Of a stretch of DNA of 11,929 bases, positions 2,529 through 8,751 are shown one piece after another; the first letter of the stretch is position 1; each line of letters begins with the position of its first letter. The stretch is from a bacterium (GTDB taxonomy: Bacteria > UBP6 > UBA1177). Location of the stretch: the NCBI GenBank assembly GCA_035354435.1, contig DAOQAY010000090.1, positions 1 through 11,929 of the forward strand, written 5' to 3'. The position numbers and the translations under genes are program-made. The notes under the pieces are model-generated. The model worked only from the letters and a program-made list of their open reading frames with translations, made no database searches and was not told where the DNA came from.

Positions 2529-3479
2529 ATGATTGATATTTTCTTTAAAGATATTGTAAAAGCTCACGAGCTTATAAGACCTTTTATCACAAAAACGCCG
2601 GTGATGAACAGCAGATCTATTGATGAAATTGCAGGTTGTCAGATATTTTTCAAGTGTGAGAACTTCCAGAAAGCCGGTGCTTTCAAGTTTAGAGGAGCGA
2701 CTAATGCCGTTATGAGCCTGAGTGATGATATGGCTTCAAAAGGGGTTTGCACTCACAGTTCGGGGAATCATGCCGCCGCCCTTGCACTTGCTGCAAAACT
2801 CAGGAATATCAAGGCATTAGTTGTGATGCCTAAGAATGCTCCATTGGTGAAAAAAGAAAATGTGAGAAGTTTCGGGGCTGAAATATTTGATGTCGAGCCG
2901 ACGCTTAAGGCAAGAATTGAAGGGCTTGAAAAAGTTGTTGCACAAACCGGTGCGGTGTTCATTCATCCTTACGATAATCCAAGCGTCATCGCAGGTCAGG
3001 GAACTGCTATTAAAGAACTTATGGAAGAGATCGGGCTTATGGATGCTGTTATCACTCCGGTAGGCGGCGGCGGTCTGCTTTCAGGAACTTCAATTGCATC
3101 TCATGGAATGTTTCCGGAAATTGAGGTTTATGCAGGTGAACCAGCTGGTGCAGATGATGCATTCAGGAGTCTCAAAGAAAACAGACTTCTATCCATGGAA
3201 AACCCGCAGACAATTGCCGACGGACTCAGAACTTCATTGTCTGAAAGGACTTTTTCCATAATAAAATCGAATGTCAAGGCAATTCTGCCTGTTGAAGATG
3301 AACTGACACTGACCGCCATGAAAATGGTGTATGACGAGCTTGACATAATAATCGAGCCGAGTTCCGCTGTCCCTCTTGCCGCAATACTTAAAAACAGAGA
3401 AATTTTCGCAAGAAAAAAAGTGGGGCTTGTTATTTCAGGTGGAAATGTTGACAGAAGTCAGTATGATTGGTTGTCTTAA
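2529..3479 (+). CDS. Fold-type II PLP-dependent serine/threonine dehydratase family enzyme (threonine ammonia-lyase / serine racemase-like).
   Basis: 316 aa. FFKCENFQKAGAFKFRGATNAV matches the PLP-lysine motif (xExxQxxGSFKxRGA). HSSGNHAAALALAA and the phosphate-binding loop TPVGGGGLLSG are present. The start lies 3 nt after the floT stop, so it is probably co-transcribed. Confidence 0.75.
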   Translation: MIDIFFKDIVKAHELIRPFITKTPVMNSRSIDEIAGCQIFFKCENFQKAGAFKFRGATNAVMSLSDDMASKGVCTHSSGNHAAALALAAKLRNIKALVVMPKNAPLVKKENVRSFGAEIFDVEPTLKARIEGLEKVVAQTGAVFIHPYDNPSVIAGQGTAIKELMEEIGLMDAVITPVGGGGLLSGTSIASHGMFPEIEVYAGEPAGADDAFRSLKENRLLSMENPQTIADGLRTSLSERTFSIIKSNVKAILPVEDELTLTAMKMVYDELDIIIEPSSAVPLAAILKNREIFARKKVGLVISGGNVDRSQYDWLS

Positions 3480-3502
3480 GAATCATTCCGGGAGGTTACA
3501 TC

Positions 3503-4573
3503 ATGAAATATTTTATCATTTGTGCGGTGTTTATCCTTTTTACAGCATGTGAGAACAGTGTTAAGATAAAAGGTGACATTGAATCTGTGAAAGATGCGGA
3601 TATTTCAGTAGCCGATGAAGATACTGATTTTGTACAAGTACCTGATACTAATGATGAAAACATTGCCGATGATGCCGTCGATGAGATAGTTGTTCCTGAT
3701 GACGATACGATCGGTGACGGTTGTCTGACCAACGATGACTGCGGGACTGATACATACTGCCTGAAAGATGCCGGCGTGTGTGATGCAGTAACGGTCGGTG
3801 TCTGCACAGTGCGTCCTGAAAACTGTTTTTATACCCGTGCCATTGAGCCTCAATGCGGCTGTGACAATTATACATACAGCAACGAATGCTGGGCCGGATC
3901 TGCCGGAGCAGTGATCGCTCATGCCGGTGAGTGTGAAGGCGATGTTCTGTGCCGGGATTCCTCAGCATGCAGCATGAATGAATACTGTCAGAAAAAACAA
4001 GGAGTTTGCGATATGGGAATGGGTGTGTGCCGTCCAGCCCTTGAAGACTGTAACGGTCAGGAAGACCCGGTAGTCTGCGGATGCGATCTTAAACAGTATA
4101 CAGGTGAATGTCAGGCCCAACTATCCGGAATATCTGTGAAACACGATGGGGAGTGCAACCGCAATGACGATTCGCTTGTCAGGTATTTCTATGCCGATAA
4201 TGCTGAATCAATAGACGGTTATCTGAAAATTATAGTGTCTCCGGTCGAAATAAAGGAATTTTTTGCGATAGACACATTCCAGGAACAGTTCATGGATAGC
4301 GAAAATTCGGTCATTATCACAGTCCGTTTCTACGAGAAAGGCGATATGAATAAAGATTACGCAGAGTTGCAATACAAACTCTCCATGCCGCTGACACTCC
4401 CCATGGGCGTAGGCTTCGGATATGAAGGAAGTTATCTCAAATGGTTCAGCTTCGACGGCGGGGAACTCGGCGACATGGACGGCACAGTGATCACATACGA
4501 TTATATACCGCTTGACAAAGAAAACGAAGTCTCAACCCTCAGTGTGACCGGACTGAACCTGTCGATGAAGTAG
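3503..4573 (+). CDS. Secreted lipoprotein with an acidic linker and two tandem Cys-rich modules, each ending in a Kazal-type-inhibitor-like motif. The C-terminal roughly 140 aa form a Cys-free domain.
   Basis: GGAGG RBS at 3491-3495 and ATG at 3503. The ORF-track start at 3467 lacks an RBS and overlaps the upstream gene. Signal peptide MKYFIICAVFILFTAC has lipobox FTAC. A D/E-rich low-complexity linker follows. CGCDNYTYSNECWAGSAGAVIAHAGEC and CGCDLKQYTGECQAQLSGISVKHDGEC resemble the Kazal CGSDGxTYxNxC...HxGxC motif. Stop TAG at 4571-4573. Confidence 0.65.
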   Translation: MKYFIICAVFILFTACENSVKIKGDIESVKDADISVADEDTDFVQVPDTNDENIADDAVDEIVVPDDDTIGDGCLTNDDCGTDTYCLKDAGVCDAVTVGVCTVRPENCFYTRAIEPQCGCDNYTYSNECWAGSAGAVIAHAGECEGDVLCRDSSACSMNEYCQKKQGVCDMGMGVCRPALEDCNGQEDPVVCGCDLKQYTGECQAQLSGISVKHDGECNRNDDSLVRYFYADNAESIDGYLKIIVSPVEIKEFFAIDTFQEQFMDSENSVIITVRFYEKGDMNKDYAELQYKLSMPLTLPMGVGFGYEGSYLKWFSFDGGELGDMDGTVITYDYIPLDKENEVSTLSVTGLNLSMK

Positions 4574-4660
4574 AGATCCCATATTTCAAACAAATTCATT
4601 TTTTAAATTGATAATCAAACATCAAAGTTTAGAATATCCTGAATTGATTATTGAAAAATT

Positions 4661-4687
4661 GTAGGGGCGAGATTTATCACGCCCTTT
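4661..4687 (+). repeat. Left copy of a 27-bp inverted-repeat pair (GTAGGGGCGAGATTTATCRCGCCCTTT).
   Basis: Its reverse complement recurs at 6676-6702 with 26/27 identity (A/G at one position). Each copy is itself a GC hairpin. Confidence 0.7.
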
Positions 4688-4689
4688 TT
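4661..4689 (+). terminator. Rho-independent terminator of the Kazal-like lipoprotein gene.
   Basis: tAGGGGCG-agatttatca-CGCCCTt forms a 5-7 bp GC stem with a 10-nt loop, followed by TTTTT at 4685-4689. It lies 88 nt after the stop codon. Confidence 0.6.
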
Positions 4690-4772
4690 GAGTGGATGTT
4701 TAGATGTCGGACATTACTGAAGGGTTTGAAAGAATTAAATGAAAATAGGAGTAATGTTGTGGAGAGAAGGTG

Positions 4773-5741
4773 ATGGTAAGCGAAGAACAATCAAAAAGGA
4801 ATGCAAACATTAGCAGAGAATTATTATTAAAATCGGATTATTTTAAAGACATCGTTAGTTTTGCAGAATATTTGAGAAATTCGCCAGTAATGAACGAATT
4901 TTTGAAGTTCAGGCAGGATTTACAAAAATCTATAGAACCCGTTCTGTCAATGATTCAAAAGATTCAAGACACCGCCAGACCTTATTTGTTGAAAGCAATT
5001 CCTACATTGAAATATTTTGTAATTAGAGACAGTTATTTCTATATTTCAGATGATTGTTTTTTAAAAGAATTGGAAGATAGATACTCAAACACTATAGATA
5101 AAAATATTCTTTTAAACTTTATTGAAGAATTTTATTCCAGAAATAATTATGAAGAGATGTGCAGATTAATTGATGAATTGGACAGTTTCGAGCTTATTGA
5201 AAAAAGGATTCACATAATAAAAAGTGTAAAATCTGTGATTTCAAGTGGTTTAAAAGACACGGATATTGCAAATGTTGTGATACCTGTGATTATTTCGCAG
5301 TTAGATGGAGTAGTTAAAGACTTTTACATTAAGCTGGATCCAGAGATTAGTAAAAAGAAGATATTAAAACATAAAAATGTATTAAGAGAAAATCCCCTAA
5401 TAAACGACATTTCCTTTTCTAATTATATAAATATTCTTCATCCTATTTTCTATCTATTTGAGTTTGAAAATGGCATTAAAAACGAAACGAAAAAAAACGA
5501 AAACAATCACGAAGAATATTTTATTGAAAAAGCTACAGAGGAAGAATTAGAAAATTATGTTTTGAATCGAAATGGAATCATGCATGGAGAAAAAGTAGAT
5601 TACGGCAAAAAAATTGAGTTGATAAGAGTGGTTTTATTTTATGATACAGTTGTTAAATCTGTAACAAATGCAATAAATGATATAAATAAGAAAATATTGG
5701 AAAATAATGAAGAAATAAAAATCGTTGAGGGCGAGAAGTGA
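4773..5741 (+). CDS. Hypothetical protein with a C-terminal HEPN-type Rx4H motif. Candidate RNase effector (Abi/toxin-like).
   Basis: About 322 aa. RBS GGAGAG at 4761-4766, ATG at 4773, and an alternative GTG at 4770. Eyeball GC about 30%. Motif LNRNGIMHGE at nt 5568-5585 fits the HEPN R-[NHQ]-x3-H signature. No Walker A/B motif is seen. There is a 1-nt overlap with the downstream gene. Confidence 0.6.
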   Translation: MVSEEQSKRNANISRELLLKSDYFKDIVSFAEYLRNSPVMNEFLKFRQDLQKSIEPVLSMIQKIQDTARPYLLKAIPTLKYFVIRDSYFYISDDCFLKELEDRYSNTIDKNILLNFIEEFYSRNNYEEMCRLIDELDSFELIEKRIHIIKSVKSVISSGLKDTDIANVVIPVIISQLDGVVKDFYIKLDPEISKKKILKHKNVLRENPLINDISFSNYINILHPIFYLFEFENGIKNETKKNENNHEEYFIEKATEEELENYVLNRNGIMHGEKVDYGKKIELIRVVLFYDTVVKSVTNAINDINKKILENNEEIKIVEGEK

Positions 5742-6583
5742 TGATGGAATCAAAGCTTAGAAATTTGTTAAGATTTGAAGCACAGGAAATAAAAATGTCT
5801 TTTGAAAAGGCGAGTATTGAAGGTCAAGGAACGCCGCAAGAAATTGCTGACCGTAGAGAAGCCGCTTTTGTCTCTTCCTTCTTAAAAAAATATTTTCCTT
5901 TTCCGTATAGGATTGAAAAAGGAAATATTATTGATAGCTATAATAACAGAAGCAATTCAATAGATTGTATTATATTAAACCCATCCCATCCTTACACAAT
6001 AGATCCCAAAAATGAAAGAGCTTCAATAATATTTGCTGATGGTGTCGATTGTGCAATAGAAATAAAGCCAGATCTTGCTAATAACCATGAATTAATTAGA
6101 AGTCTAGATCAGATTAGAAGTGTGAAAAAGTTAAGACGCAAAAGAGACGGATTATTGTTGAAAGGCAAATATAATGATCATCAATTGCTCACAGCGAAAA
6201 CAATTCCTTCTTTTATTTTTGCAGATAGAACATATGTCGATTTAAGGTTATTAATTAGTCAAATTGTAGAATACTTTATAAAGGAAAGAGTTCCTTATGA
6301 CGAGCAGTTTGACTATATCGTTATAAACAATAGAGGTCTCATATTCAATTCAAGAAAGGACTTTTATTGTGATCTCAAACCAACTGAAGGAATTTGTTTT
6401 GCTGAAACACAAGAAGATACAATTGCTACATTTTTATTGTTGCTTAACAATCTGCCAAAATCAGAACCAGCAATTAGCGAGAGTGTTTTGAGCTTTTACC
6501 TTGATAATAGTTTGTATTCTGACAAATTGAAGACCTTTCAAGATATTAACGAAAAAATGCATGCTGTTTTAGGTAAACCTTGA
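5741..6583 (+). CDS. Hypothetical protein with a candidate PD-(D/E)xK (restriction-endonuclease-fold) nuclease motif.
   Basis: About 280 aa. The ATG at 5741 overlaps the TGA of gene A (gTGATGatg), with alternative starts at GTG 5738 and ATG 5744. Strand-turn-strand SIIFAD-GVD-CAIEIK has D at 6038-6040 and E-x-K at 6059-6067. It is preceded by GTPQEIADRRE (helix Glu) and SIDCIIL. There is no nucleotidyltransferase (MNT) motif. Eyeball GC about 30%. Confidence 0.6.
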   Translation: MMESKLRNLLRFEAQEIKMSFEKASIEGQGTPQEIADRREAAFVSSFLKKYFPFPYRIEKGNIIDSYNNRSNSIDCIILNPSHPYTIDPKNERASIIFADGVDCAIEIKPDLANNHELIRSLDQIRSVKKLRRKRDGLLLKGKYNDHQLLTAKTIPSFIFADRTYVDLRLLISQIVEYFIKERVPYDEQFDYIVINNRGLIFNSRKDFYCDLKPTEGICFAETQEDTIATFLLLLNNLPKSEPAISESVLSFYLDNSLYSDKLKTFQDINEKMHAVLGKP

Positions 6584-6595
6584 GCGTCCTTCTTT

Positions 6596-6644
6596 TGATT
6601 CACAGCACATTCCTCTATAATTTCCCCATAGCGAATCTTGGAAG
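6596..6644 (+). repeat. Copy 1 of a duplicated junction segment (TGATTCACAG-cacattcctctata-ATTTCCCCATAGCGAATCTTGGAAG). It contains a perfect TATAAT at 6616-6621.
   Basis: It aligns to 6740-6773 (TGATCACACAG-ATTTACCATAGCGAAATCAAGAAG) with a 14-bp indel that removes most of the TATAAT. Possible -35 elements are TTGATT (15-nt spacer) or TTTTGA (17-nt spacer). Confidence 0.5.
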
Positions 6645-6675
6645 AAAAAGGGAAAACAAATCCAAATTCAAAGAG

Positions 6676-6702
6676 AAAGGGCGCGATAAATCTCGCCCCT
6701 AC
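6676..6702 (-). repeat. Right copy of the 27-bp hairpin repeat, in inverted orientation.
   Basis: The minus strand reads GTAGGGGCGAGATTTATCGCGCCCTTT, followed by CTC rather than a T-run. Confidence 0.7.
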
Positions 6703-6714
6703 GGAAATTCAACC

Positions 6715-6736
6715 GCAAATTCTCTTTAGTAAATAA
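6715..6736 (+). repeat. Direct repeat DR1 (GCAAATTCTCTTTAGTAAATAA).
   Basis: An identical 22-mer sits at 7717-7738, which is the 3' end of the dinD-like CDS (...TANSL*). The DR1 reading frame also encodes ...TANSL* but shows no further similarity upstream. Confidence 0.7.
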
Positions 6737-6739
6737 TCT

Positions 6740-6773
6740 GATCACACAGATTTACCATAGCGAAATCAAGAAG
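6740..6773 (+). repeat. Copy 2 of the duplicated junction segment.
   Basis: See copy 1. It lies immediately downstream of DR1 and upstream of the dinD-like promoter region (TTGACT at 6779-6784). Confidence 0.5.
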
Positions 6774-6858
6774 TTAGATTGACTTTTAAGAAGTATTCTA
6801 TATTGTTTTCCATGTTCTGGGCTAAATATATGGCAATATTTGCAACAAGGAGTCTTAA

Positions 6859-7731
6859 ATGGACAGAAGGCTTATCCAGTCAATGAAATCAATATTTGAT
6901 GAACTTACAAAAAAAATAAATGAGGAAAATATTGAGTTCTGGTTCGCCAGAGAGATCATGGAACATCTGGGATATGCTCGCTGGGAAAATTTTCTGACAG
7001 CCATTAACCGTGCGATTTATTCTTGTATATCAACAGGTACAGATCCAGAAGACCATTTTCGTGGAGTAAAGAAAATGGTTAATATCGGTAGTAGCGCAAC
7101 AAGAGACATAGATGATTTTATGCTTACTCGTTACGCATGCTATTTAATTGCTCAAAACGGCGATCCGAGAAAAGAGGAAATTGCTTTTGCTCAAAGTTAT
7201 TTTGCTTTCCAGACAAGAAAACAGGAAATTATTGAAGATAGAATGCAGCTTCAGTTTCGTATTGAAGCCAGGGAAAGACTAAGAGAATCAGAAAAAACAC
7301 TGTCACAGAATATTTATGAAAGAGGTGTTGATGATGATGGTTTTGCTAGAATAAGATCTAAAGGTGATGCAGCACTATTTGGTGGTAATTCAACTCAGAT
7401 GATGAAGGATAAATTCGGGATTACACAGTCACGGCCTCTAGCTGATTTTTTGCCGACATTGACAATTGCTGCAAAAAATCTTGCGACTGAAATGACAAAT
7501 CATAATGTATTGGAAGAGGATTTAAAAGGCGAAGAATCAATAACTGATGAACATGTGCAGAACAATAAAAGTGTCCGCGAAATGTTGGAAAAACGAGGAA
7601 TTCAACCTGAGAGTCTTTCTCCAGAAGAGGATATTAAAAAACTTGAGCGACGAGTAAAATCAGAAGAAAAAAAATTGGCAAGACAATCTGGTAAATTGCC
7701 AAAAAATAAAACCACTGCAAATTCTCTTTAG
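6859..7731 (+). CDS. dinD: DNA-damage-inducible protein D family protein (DinD-like).
   Basis: 290 aa. The blocks EFWFAREIMEHLGYARWENF, HFRGVKKMVNIGS, LTRYACYLIAQNGDP, AQSYFAFQTRKQE and the C-terminal IKKLERRVKSEEKK track my recollection of E. coli DinD (EFWSARELAPLLDYRDWRNF, LSRYACYLVVQNGDP, GQTYFAIQTRRQE, IKQLENSVKITEKK). RBS AAGGAG at 6848-6853. Eyeball GC about 40%. Confidence 0.85.
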   Translation: MDRRLIQSMKSIFDELTKKINEENIEFWFAREIMEHLGYARWENFLTAINRAIYSCISTGTDPEDHFRGVKKMVNIGSSATRDIDDFMLTRYACYLIAQNGDPRKEEIAFAQSYFAFQTRKQEIIEDRMQLQFRIEARERLRESEKTLSQNIYERGVDDDGFARIRSKGDAALFGGNSTQMMKDKFGITQSRPLADFLPTLTIAAKNLATEMTNHNVLEEDLKGEESITDEHVQNNKSVREMLEKRGIQPESLSPEEDIKKLERRVKSEEKKLARQSGKLPKNKTTANSL

Positions 7732-7738
7732 TAAATAA
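7717..7738 (+). repeat. Direct repeat DR2, identical to DR1 and overlapping the dinD-like stop codon.
   Basis: Identical 22-mer, 1002 bp downstream of DR1. Confidence 0.7.
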
Positions 7739-7744
7739 ATTATC

Positions 7745-7807: not shown

Positions 7808-8751
<944 letters not shown>

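What the first reader, a model, noticed from the sequence alone, without database searches (positions are those of the whole stretch)
6038..6067. Candidate PD-(D/E)xK nuclease active site (FAD...EIK) in gene B
SIIFAD-GVD-CAIEIK has the hydrophobic-strand-Asp, short turn, hydrophobic-strand-Glu-x-Lys arrangement characteristic of the restriction-endonuclease fold. An upstream helix carries Glu (GTPQEIADRRE) and a further hD strand (SIDCIIL) precedes it. No MNT GSx10DxD motif is present, which argues against a HEPN/MNT toxin-antitoxin reading of the pair.
Basis: partly seen in the sequence, partly recalled or inferred. Interest (0 to 1): 0.6.

Follow-up and report, generated by a model that had tools for sequence, protein, structure and literature searches.

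The report
Stand-alone NucC-like DNA endonuclease gene
Gene B encodes a restriction-enzyme-fold DNA-cutting protein closely related in shape to NucC, the bacterial anti-virus nuclease switched on by a cyclic nucleotide, but it lacks NucC's switch residues and any linked signal-making enzyme, so it is a fairly ordinary defence-island nuclease with an unknown trigger.

Summary
Window 6038-6067 encodes D101-G-V-D-C-A-I-E108-I-K110 of a 281-aa ORF (5738-6583). D76, D101, D104, E108 and K110 are invariant in 47 homologues of 49-70% identity.

The interpretation, a PD-(D/E)xK nuclease rather than a HEPN/MNT pair, is supported with one correction. The canonical catalytic Asp is D76 in SIDCIIL, which aligns with NucC D73. 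D101 aligns with a second conserved acidic residue, NucC E97.

NucC's regulatory features are not kept:
- R53 is replaced by Pro and Y81 by His.
- The gate-loop motif is absent.
- No cyclase or Cas10 lies nearby.

Thirty genomic homologues have no conserved partner and often sit among defence genes. Here B is translationally coupled to a HEPN (Rx4H) protein in an AT-rich islet bracketed by inverted REP-like hairpins.

Verdict: a real, probably cA3-independent NucC-like defence nuclease, and a variant of a known kind. Interest is modest.

The parts
5738..6583 (+). Gene B: 281-aa NucC-like (DUF6602) PD-(D/E)xK endonuclease. Alternative starts are ATG 5741 or 5744, so the start overlaps or abuts the stop of gene A (TGA 5739-5741).
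5834..5893 (+). Helix alpha1 (residues 33-52) carrying invariant E35, D38, R39 and E41. D38 and E41 align with NucC D36 and E39.
5960..5977 (+). Strand beta2, I75-D76-C-I-I-L80. D76 (5963-5965) is the canonical catalytic Asp and aligns with NucC D73.
   Evidence: alignments; invariant; E75-80; NucC D73 binds Mg; D73N is inactive.
6038..6067 (+). D101 aligns with NucC E97. D104 is specific to the B family (NucC has Y100).
5903..5989 (+). Positions equivalent to the NucC cA3-pocket residues. P56 (5903-5905) sits where NucC has invariant R53. H84 (5987-5989), in the invariant NPSHPYT, sits where NucC has invariant Y81.
   Evidence: hhalign, hmmsearch, NucC family invariants, B family invariants, and the role of R53/Y81.
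6134..6208 (+). Residues 133-157, at the place of the NucC gate loop. This is the least conserved, indel-rich segment of the B family (16-27 aa) and has no PIPHAGGTY motif.
4770..5741 (+). Gene A: 323-aa all-alpha HEPN-like protein, co-oriented with B and translationally coupled to it.
5568..5588 (+). HEPN Rx4H motif of gene A: R267-N-G-I-M-H272-G273. R, H and G are invariant in 57 family members.
4661..4687 (+). Left REP-like hairpin (GTAG + GGGCGAGAT..ATCACGCCC), followed by TTTTT. It is one arm of the 27-nt inverted repeat that brackets A-B.
6676..6702 (-). Right REP-like hairpin. It is an inverted copy (96% complementary) lying 93 nt after the stop codon of B.
6859..7731 (+). Neighbouring dinD-like gene (Bro-N; PADLOC candidate PDC-S13). 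It is a separate unit, bracketed by a 25-31-nt direct repeat (6706-6738 and 7708-7740).

Best explanation
Gene B encodes a Mg2+-dependent DNA endonuclease of the restriction-endonuclease (PD-(D/E)xK) fold. It belongs to the NucC/DUF6602 family.

Shown:
- It has the full-length NucC fold, including the N-terminal alpha0 helix.
- It has an intact catalytic constellation: E41 on alpha1, D76 on beta2, and E108-x-K110 on beta3, with extra invariant acidic residues D66, D101 and D104.
- The family is widespread, occurs without a fixed partner, and often sits among defence genes and mobile elements.

Inferred:
- It acts as a defence or abortive-infection effector that cuts DNA non-specifically once released from autoinhibition. 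By analogy with NucC, release would come from a change of oligomeric state (trimer to hexamer).
- The trigger is probably not cA3 bound as in NucC. The two reliably alignable pocket residues and the gate-loop latch are replaced, and no cyclase is linked.
- In this genome it is co-expressed with, and possibly controlled by or acting alongside, an upstream HEPN (Rx4H) putative RNase. The two genes form a horizontally acquired AT-rich cassette.
For: Family and fold:
- Pfam DUF6602 66 bits.
- PADLOC NucC effector models 4.5e-16 to 7.7e-14.
- PDB sequence hits are NucC; the only other matches have E of 0.055 or weaker.
- NucC proper carries the same Pfam domain.
- hhalign probability 95.7%.
- AlphaFold model pLDDT 91.6.
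- Foldseek top 14 hits are all NucC, E about 1e-11, 250-275 columns.

Active site:
- D76, E108 and K110 are invariant.
- They align with NucC D73, E104 and K106, whose role is experimentally established.

Stand-alone and defence context:
- The 30 genome loci have no conserved neighbour.
- Neighbours include type IIG and type IV restriction enzymes, ThsB-TIR, AriA, AbiLi, MADS, integrases and recombinases.
- A DUF6602 single-gene integron cassette ('Damona') has published anti-phage activity.

Diverged regulation:
- NucC-invariant R53 corresponds to B-invariant P56, and Y81 to H84.
- The gate-loop motif is absent and that segment is hypervariable.

Operon and islet:
- The A stop and B start overlap.
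- GC is 27-31% against 40-48% in the flanks.
- A has an invariant Rx4H motif and HEPN-like fold matches.
Against: - No biochemical data exist. DNase activity, metal dependence and oligomeric state are inferred from homology.
- The pocket comparison rests on two aligned positions. The C-terminal pocket residues (NucC T226/V227) could not be aligned reliably (0.1-bit segment). H84 is aromatic and R58 lies two residues from the R53 position, so a nucleotide ligand, even cA3, is not excluded.
- A defence role is contextual only. B is almost absent from viral contigs (2 loci) and from the phage and plasmid collections. Several homologues sit next to housekeeping genes.
- A functional A-B link is unsupported outside this lineage. 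A's closest homologue lies inside a type I R-M operon with no DUF6602 gene. Only one other locus has a weak A-like ORF near a B homologue.
Confidence: 0.75

Rival explanations
1. B is a bona fide cA3-activated NucC. It works in trans with a CBASS CD-NTase or a type III CRISPR Cas10 encoded elsewhere in the genome.
For: - Full-length NucC fold, same Pfam family and retained alpha0 helix.
- One neighbour among 138 scanned matched a CBASS cyclase model.
- H84 could stack on a base as Y81 does in NucC.
Against: - The NucC-invariant cA3 contact R53 is an invariant Pro in the B family and Y81 is His. R53 and Y81 mutants abolish cA3 activation in NucC.
- The conserved gate-loop latch PIPHAGGTY (H136, Y141) is absent and that segment is hypervariable.
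- No cyclase or Cas10 lies within the 25-kb contig region seen or in nearly all of the 30+ homologue loci.
Confidence: 0.12
2. B is a sequence-specific or modification-dependent restriction endonuclease (type II or type IV). It acts constitutively on foreign DNA, either with a methyltransferase encoded elsewhere or with none needed.
For: - Some homologues lie just downstream of a DNA methyltransferase: N6_N4_Mtase 157 nt upstream in L033, and a type IIG RM enzyme overlapping by 4 nt in L005.
Against: - There is no conserved methyltransferase partner across 30+ loci and none in the window.
- Family conservation is very high across phyla in the N-terminal half. That is unusual for REases, whose specificity elements diverge fast.
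Confidence: 0.08
3. A and B form a toxin-antitoxin pair. Either the HEPN toxin A is neutralised by B, or the nuclease toxin B is neutralised by A. The nuclease motif would then be incidental to the pair's real role.
For: - Overlapping stop and start, and co-orientation.
- HEPN toxins commonly have a downstream partner.
- A resembles the RnlA/LsoA toxins in fold.
Against: - Co-occurrence is not conserved. A has two close relatives in 5.8 billion proteins, and the non-self one has no DUF6602 neighbour.
- B homologues carry many different upstream genes or none.
- B has no MNT motif and keeps an invariant catalytic site, which argues for an enzyme rather than a mere binder.
Confidence: 0.05

Closest known systems
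NucC (CBASS / type III CRISPR cA3-activated homotrimeric DNA endonuclease; PDB 6P7O, 6P7P, 6Q1H, 6UXF, 7ZGV)
   Same: - Same Pfam family, DUF6602.
- Catalytic I-D-x30/31-E-x-K motif, plus conserved D36/E39, D63 and E97 equivalents.
- An N-terminal alpha0 helix is present.
   Different: - About 16-20% identity only.
- About 40 residues longer.
- cA3 contacts R53 and Y81 are replaced by Pro and His.
- The gate-loop latch motif is absent and that region is hypervariable.
- It is not encoded next to a CD-NTase or Cas10.
- Sequence similarity is undetectable beyond residue about 137.
Damona (single-gene anti-phage cassette of the Vibrio cholerae chromosomal integron; Darracq et al., bioRxiv 10.1101/2024.07.02.601686)
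   Same: It is described as a DUF6602 protein that also matches the 'Cas PD_DExK' and CBASS small-endonuclease profiles. Gene B gives the same profile pattern. It works as a single gene without a cyclase.
   Different: - Damona homologues are reported in Acinetobacter prophages, whereas B has no tblastn hit in the phage collection.
- In this window B is coupled to a HEPN gene.
CCGG-family type II restriction endonucleases (Kpn2I, NgoMIV, Bse634I, Cfr10I, SgrAI, PspGI)
   Different: The match is much weaker than to NucC. There is no cognate methyltransferase and no sign of a recognition module.
RnlA / LsoA HEPN mRNA endoribonuclease toxins (for the partner gene A)
   Different: There is no sequence-level match to any Pfam, NCBIfam or PADLOC family. 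There is no RnlB/LsoB-like antitoxin. The domain arrangement differs, with a long N-terminal helical region.

Membership tests
PD-(D/E)xK (restriction endonuclease-like) superfamily | alpha-beta-beta-beta-alpha-beta core fold | tested here: met
PD-(D/E)xK (restriction endonuclease-like) superfamily | Conserved D on beta2 and (D/E)xK on beta3 | tested here: met
   D76, E108 and K110 are invariant in 47 homologues. They lie on E75-80 and E103-112. The spacing of ID to E-x-K is constant across the family.
PD-(D/E)xK (restriction endonuclease-like) superfamily | Metal-dependent phosphodiester cleavage | not testable with these tools
   Requires purified protein.
NucC / Pfam DUF6602 | Match to the family profile above the curated threshold | tested here: met
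   PF20247 66.2 bits against a cut-off of 27. NucC itself carries PF20247. hhalign probability 95.7%.
NucC / Pfam DUF6602 | Full-length NucC fold, meaning the nuclease core plus the family-specific embellishments | tested here: met
NucC / Pfam DUF6602 | cA3-binding residues R53 and Y81 | tested here: not met
   R53 corresponds to P56 and Y81 to H84. Each residue is invariant within its own family. Their role is described.
NucC / Pfam DUF6602 | Gate loop with latch residues H136 and Y141 (PIPHAGGTY) | tested here: not met
   The motif is conserved in NucC fragments. The hhalign alignment stops just before it. The equivalent B segment is 16-27 aa long and poorly conserved.
NucC / Pfam DUF6602 | C-terminal cA3 contacts T226 and V227 | tested here: inconclusive
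   Only a 0.1-bit local alignment covers this region. Full-length NucC sequences could not be retrieved; only fragments were returned.
NucC / Pfam DUF6602 | Encoded in a CBASS (CD-NTase) or type III CRISPR (Cas10) operon | tested here: not met
   There is none in the window or in the 16.6-kb locus. At most one cyclase match was found among 138 neighbours of 28 homologue loci.
NucC / Pfam DUF6602 | Homotrimer that hexamerises on activation | not testable with these tools
   No multimer prediction or biophysics was available.
Damona (DUF6602 single-gene defence) | DUF6602 domain with matches to Cas PD_DExK and CBASS small-endonuclease profiles | tested here: met
   for gene B, compared with the description.
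Damona (DUF6602 single-gene defence) | Sequence relatedness to the V. cholerae Damona protein | not tested
   The sequence is not held in the tools. It is not in the paper's supplementary text either.
Damona (DUF6602 single-gene defence) | Confers phage resistance as a single gene | not testable with these tools
   Needs phage challenge experiments.
HEPN/MNT toxin-antitoxin pair | One partner has the HEPN Rx4-6H motif | tested here: met
   Gene A has R267-x4-H272, invariant in 57 sequences. Its fold resembles HEPN proteins.
HEPN/MNT toxin-antitoxin pair | The other partner is a minimal nucleotidyltransferase (GSx10DxD) | tested here: not met
   No such motif occurs in B or in the 47 family members. 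B has the REase fold.
REP / RAYT repetitive extragenic palindromes (the hairpins flanking A-B) | 5' GTAG followed by a GC-rich imperfect palindrome. Multi-copy, often in inverted doublets, and associated with Y1 (IS200-like) RAYT transposases. | tested here: met
   - GTAG plus hairpin.
- More than 119 metagenome contigs carry the exact 21-nt core, with only the preceding GTA conserved in the flanks.
- 69 of 119 adjacent pairs are convergent, mostly 17-32 nt apart.
- Y1_Tnp homologues lie next to copies in 7 loci.

The most novel reading that the evidence does not exclude
The B family is a widespread clade of NucC-fold nucleases. On this reading it has swapped the cA3 pocket and gate loop for a different trigger, either a new small-molecule ligand or a protein trigger. 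It serves as a plug-in effector for varied upstream partners: a HEPN protein here, a conserved 240-aa unknown protein in six Mollicutes/Clostridia loci, and a caspase-TIR-TIR operon in two Acholeplasmatales-type MAGs.

In addition, the A-B cassette sits exactly inside a convergent pair of REP hairpins. A GmrSD restriction gene next to a RAYT transposase has the same geometry in another contig. REP doublets may therefore capture or move defence cargo.
Probability: 0.3. Interest if true: 0.6.

Novelty: new variant of a known kind. Interest (0 to 1): 0.38.

Why it matters
NucC is the model for how a restriction-type nuclease is put under second-messenger control. A large, phylogenetically broad sister clade keeps the fold and active site but has invariant, different residues at the ligand pocket, and it occurs without cyclases. 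That clade asks what else can switch such a nuclease on.

If the trigger is a new ligand or a phage protein, it would extend the repertoire of effector control in bacterial immunity. It would also supply a mechanism for DUF6602 single-gene systems such as Damona.

For annotation, the result turns a 'hypothetical protein / DUF6602' into a specific, testable enzyme with named catalytic residues: D76, E108 and K110, not D101 as the primary Asp.

The REP-bracketed geometry is a lead on how small defence cassettes might be placed or moved.

Tried and rejected
- tblastn of B against the phage and plasmid collections gave no match, so no annotated close relative or Damona homologue could be recovered that way.
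- The Damona sequence or locus tag was not in the paper's text or held supplement.
- The last homologue search, seeded with an E. coli NucC fragment to obtain full-length NucC sequences, returned only N-terminal fragments of up to 167 aa. The gate loop could therefore be compared, but not the C-terminal pocket residues T226/V227.
- A search for a conserved partner of B found none. The upstream and downstream ORFs of 30 loci were clustered by BLAST and scanned with Pfam and PADLOC. Gene A's profile hits only one weak ORF, downstream of B in L002.
- A search for an 'empty site' without A-B failed. All 11-13 contigs carrying the identical upstream gene or gene A have the same A-B-dinD arrangement and an identical intergenic sequence.
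- Rfam gave no match in 4400-7000. There are no tRNAs in the window. There were no literature hits for the hairpin sequence.
- The promoter and terminator scan gave nothing above the shuffled expectation.
- The idea that D101 is the canonical PD Asp was considered and rejected. It lies 7 residues before E108 in the turn preceding beta3, and three alignments put D76 on NucC D73.
- The idea that the regular arrays of the hairpin in some metagenome contigs are CRISPR arrays was considered and not pursued. In L041, L064 and L074 the inter-repeat sequence is itself repeated, so these are tandem repeats.

Full report
**1. The observation**

The window contains two co-oriented ORFs, gene A (4770..5741, 323 aa) and gene B (5738..6583, 281 aa). 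The stop of A (TGA 5739-5741) overlaps the possible starts of B (GTG 5738, ATG 5741, ATG 5744).

SIDCIIL (D76) and GTPQEIADRRE (E41) lie upstream.

As a bare pattern the motif is weak evidence. A loose version occurs once in the 3,528 residues of the window's proteins, but also in 4.6% of shuffles of B. Its significance comes from conservation and structure.

**2. Homologues and conservation**

B has 293 detectable homologues, nearly all 270-285 aa and all carrying Pfam DUF6602. They come from Bacillota, Bacteroidota, Gammaproteobacteria, Deinococcales, Planctomycetota, Spirochaetes and Mollicutes.

In an alignment of 47 sequences (49-70% identity to B, mean column identity 54%), 38 columns are invariant. 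These include E35, D38, R39, E41, D66, D76, H84, D101, D104, E108, K110 and Q125.

**3. Family and fold**

- B scores 66 bits on DUF6602 against a cut-off of 27. It scores about 1e-16 on the PADLOC profiles for the NucC effector and the CRISPR-associated PD-DExK.
- Among solved structures, the matches are NucC proteins; the only others are weak (E 0.055 or higher), and with the family profile all five matches at E up to 0.006 are NucC. NucC itself carries DUF6602.
- A profile-profile comparison of the B family with NucC N-terminal sequences gives 95.7% probability over B 32-137 and NucC 30-132.
- The AlphaFold model is confident (pLDDT 91.6, pTM 0.91). It shows alpha0 (6-28), alpha1 (33-52), beta1 (58-62), beta2 (75-80), beta3 (103-112), alpha2 (116-130) and beta4 (158-164), followed by a C-terminal alpha/beta part.
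- The Foldseek top 14 PDB hits are all NucC (E 1e-11 to 1e-8, 250-275 aligned columns). The next hit has E 0.7.

The REase core is therefore present, and the kinship to NucC is specific and full-length.

**4. The active site**

The NucC paper defines the motif I-D73-x30-E104-A-K106. D73 and E104 bind Mg2+, and D73N is inactive in vitro and in vivo.

Three alignments give the following equivalences:

| Gene B | NucC |
|---|---|
| D76 | D73 |
| E108 | E104 |
| K110 | K106 |
| D101 | E97 |
| D66 | D63 |
| D38 | D36 |
| E41 | E39 |

D104 has no acidic counterpart in NucC, which has Y100 there. The canonical triad is therefore D76, E108 and K110, with I-D-x31-E-I-K spacing that is constant across the family.

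**5. What differs from NucC**

NucC is switched on by cA3. The ligand binds in a pocket on the three-fold axis formed by R53, Y81 and T226/V227. The pocket is closed by a gate loop latched by H136 and Y141. Mutating any of these residues abolishes activation.

In NucC sequences, R53 and Y81 and most of the SLPIPHAGGTY loop are invariant or nearly so. In the B family:

- R53 is an invariant Pro (P56).
- Y81 is an invariant His (H84, in NPSHPYT).
- The alignment ends just before the gate loop.
- The corresponding B segment (133-156) is the most variable part of the protein, at 16-27 residues.
- The C-terminal pocket residues could not be compared (only NucC fragments were retrieved).

There is also no CD-NTase or Cas10 in the window or in the 16.6-kb locus. 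A Pfam and PADLOC census of 138 neighbours from 28 homologue loci found no recurrent partner and at most one cyclase.

So B works like NucC at the catalytic level, but it fails the features that define NucC as a cA3-controlled effector.

**6. Context**

B-family genes are typically solitary, each with its own upstream intergenic region. Where a tightly linked upstream gene exists, it differs between subclades:

- a type IIG RM enzyme (L005);
- a RES-like protein (L007);
- a conserved 240-aa unknown protein in six Mollicutes/Clostridia loci with different outer flanks;
- a caspase-like, TIR, TIR-like operon in two MAGs;
- a HigA-like HTH protein (L026);
- integrases, ParAB and primase genes of mobile elements.

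Neighbours also include type IV restriction, AriA, AbiLi and MADS genes. This is the pattern of a mobile defence effector.

A DUF6602 single-gene integron cassette, Damona, has been shown to protect against phage. It was described with the same profile matches. I could not obtain its sequence, so I do not claim membership.

B is rare in viral contigs (2 loci) and absent from the phage and plasmid collections at tblastn sensitivity.

**7. Gene A**

A has no Pfam, NCBIfam or PADLOC match. In 5.8 billion proteins it has only one close relative besides itself. An exhaustive HMMER search found 128 remote relatives.

Across 57 of them R146, P172, R267, H272 and G273 are invariant. This gives R-[N/H]-x-I-x-H-G, the HEPN Rx4H signature.

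A's closest homologue sits between hsdS and hsdR of a type I R-M operon on a Tn7-like element, with no DUF6602 gene nearby.

A is thus a HEPN-type putative RNase of defence islands. Its pairing with B is lineage-specific. The only other hint is a weak A-like ORF downstream of the closest genomic B homologue. A HEPN/MNT reading is excluded because no MNT motif is present and B has the REase fold.

**8. The islet**

A and B have 27-31% GC against 40-48% in the flanks. All 11-13 metagenomic contigs of this organism carry the same arrangement, and no empty site was found.

A 27-nt inverted repeat (4661-4687 and 6676-6702, 96% complementary) brackets A-B exactly. These are the only two copies in the window and in the 16.6-kb locus. 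Each arm is a hairpin preceded by GTAG.

The 21-nt core occurs exactly in more than 119 metagenome contigs, with unrelated flanks apart from the GTA. The copies mostly form convergent doublets 17-32 nt apart. In seven loci a copy lies next to IS200-like Y1 transposase (RAYT-like) genes. These are the hallmarks of REP/REPIN elements.

In one contig a convergent pair 2,046 nt apart encloses a single GmrSD restriction gene, with the RAYT-like gene next door. The window has the same geometry, with 1,988 nt between the arms. This may be coincidence, because REPs populate intergenic regions and the left copy looks like the terminator of the upstream gene. It may instead mean that REP doublets mark or mobilise defence cassettes. 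I treat it as an unproven lead.

**9. Mechanism and verdict**

Most likely (about 0.75), B is a Mg2+-dependent, NucC-fold DNA endonuclease that uses D76, E108 and K110. It is held inactive until triggered and serves as a defence or abortive-infection effector. The trigger is probably not cA3 bound in the NucC manner. In this genome B is co-expressed with a HEPN putative RNase.

The fold, the family, the conserved catalytic site, the divergence of the NucC regulatory residues and the lack of a conserved partner or cyclase are shown. The enzymatic activity, the oligomeric switch, the defence role and any A-B cooperation are inferred.

The rivals are each less likely, for the reasons given in the rival-explanation entries:

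- a trans-acting canonical NucC (0.12);
- a restriction enzyme (0.08);
- an A-B toxin-antitoxin pair (0.05).

The finding is real and correctly interpreted in essence. It is a variant of a known kind and of modest interest.

Noticed in passing
window 4661-4687 (+) and 6676-6702 (-): A 27-nt inverted repeat (96% complementary) brackets the A-B gene pair exactly. Each arm is GTAG plus a GC-rich hairpin. The 21-nt core occurs exactly in more than 119 metagenome contigs, mostly as convergent doublets 17-32 nt apart, and sometimes lies next to IS200-like Y1 (RAYT-like) transposase genes. It is therefore a REP/REPIN-type element. There was no Rfam or literature match.
   Followed up: partly
L040:1978-4774: A convergent pair of the same REP element, 2,046 nt apart, encloses a single GmrSD-type restriction gene (GmrSD_N 103 bits). 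A Y1_Tnp (RAYT-like) gene follows immediately. The window's A-B cassette has the same geometry.
   Followed up: partly
window 6706-6738 and 7708-7740: A 25-31-nt direct repeat brackets the dinD-like gene. It consists of the 3' end of that gene, including the stop codon, plus TAAATAA. The first copy lies right after the right REP arm. This suggests a cassette-like insertion or a remnant of an earlier gene copy.
   Followed up: no
window 6859-7731 (+): The downstream gene is a DNA-damage-inducible protein D (DinD) homologue (NCBIfam 368 bits, Bro-N domain). It also matches the PADLOC phage-defence candidate PDC-S13 at 1e-115. The AT-rich islet therefore holds three defence-associated genes.
   Followed up: partly
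window 7808-8641 (-), repeats at 8397-8556: A Cys-rich lipoprotein gene carries a 9-nt tandem array (about 17 plus 9 copies, encoding TGN/TGD repeats). Its length differs between assemblies of the same organism (243, 274 and 277 aa), so it is a contingency-like repeat polymorphism. The upstream gene 3467-4573 is also a Cys-rich lipoprotein.
   Followed up: partly
L025:1332-3961 and L024:34-1989: In two Acholeplasmataceae/Izemoplasmatales MAGs a B homologue is the last gene of a tightly packed operon: caspase-like (323 aa), ThsB-type TIR (139 aa), TIR/STALD-like (130 aa), then the NucC-like nuclease. This may be a TIR-signalling system that uses this nuclease as its effector.
   Followed up: partly
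L012:5286-6014, L013:273-1001, L015:5218-5928, L016:5217-5936, L017:2858-3577, L019:4067-4789: A conserved 236-242-aa protein with no Pfam or PADLOC match lies immediately upstream of the B homologue, overlapping or within 10 nt. It occurs in six Mollicutes/Clostridia loci whose outer flanks differ. It is a candidate dedicated partner in that subclade.
   Followed up: partly
L032:5211-12135: The only close homologue of gene A (47% identity) is inserted between hsdS and hsdR of a type I R-M operon. Two GmrSD genes lie beside it, and TniB- and TniQ/TnsD-type Tn7-like transposition genes lie on the same contig.
   Followed up: no
L041, L064, L074 (period about 85 nt); L126:9654-9957 (period 56); L119 (period 67): The same REP core also occurs in regular tandem arrays. 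In L041, L064 and L074 the inter-copy sequence is itself repeated, so these are tandem repeats rather than CRISPR arrays. L126 and L119 were not examined.
   Followed up: no
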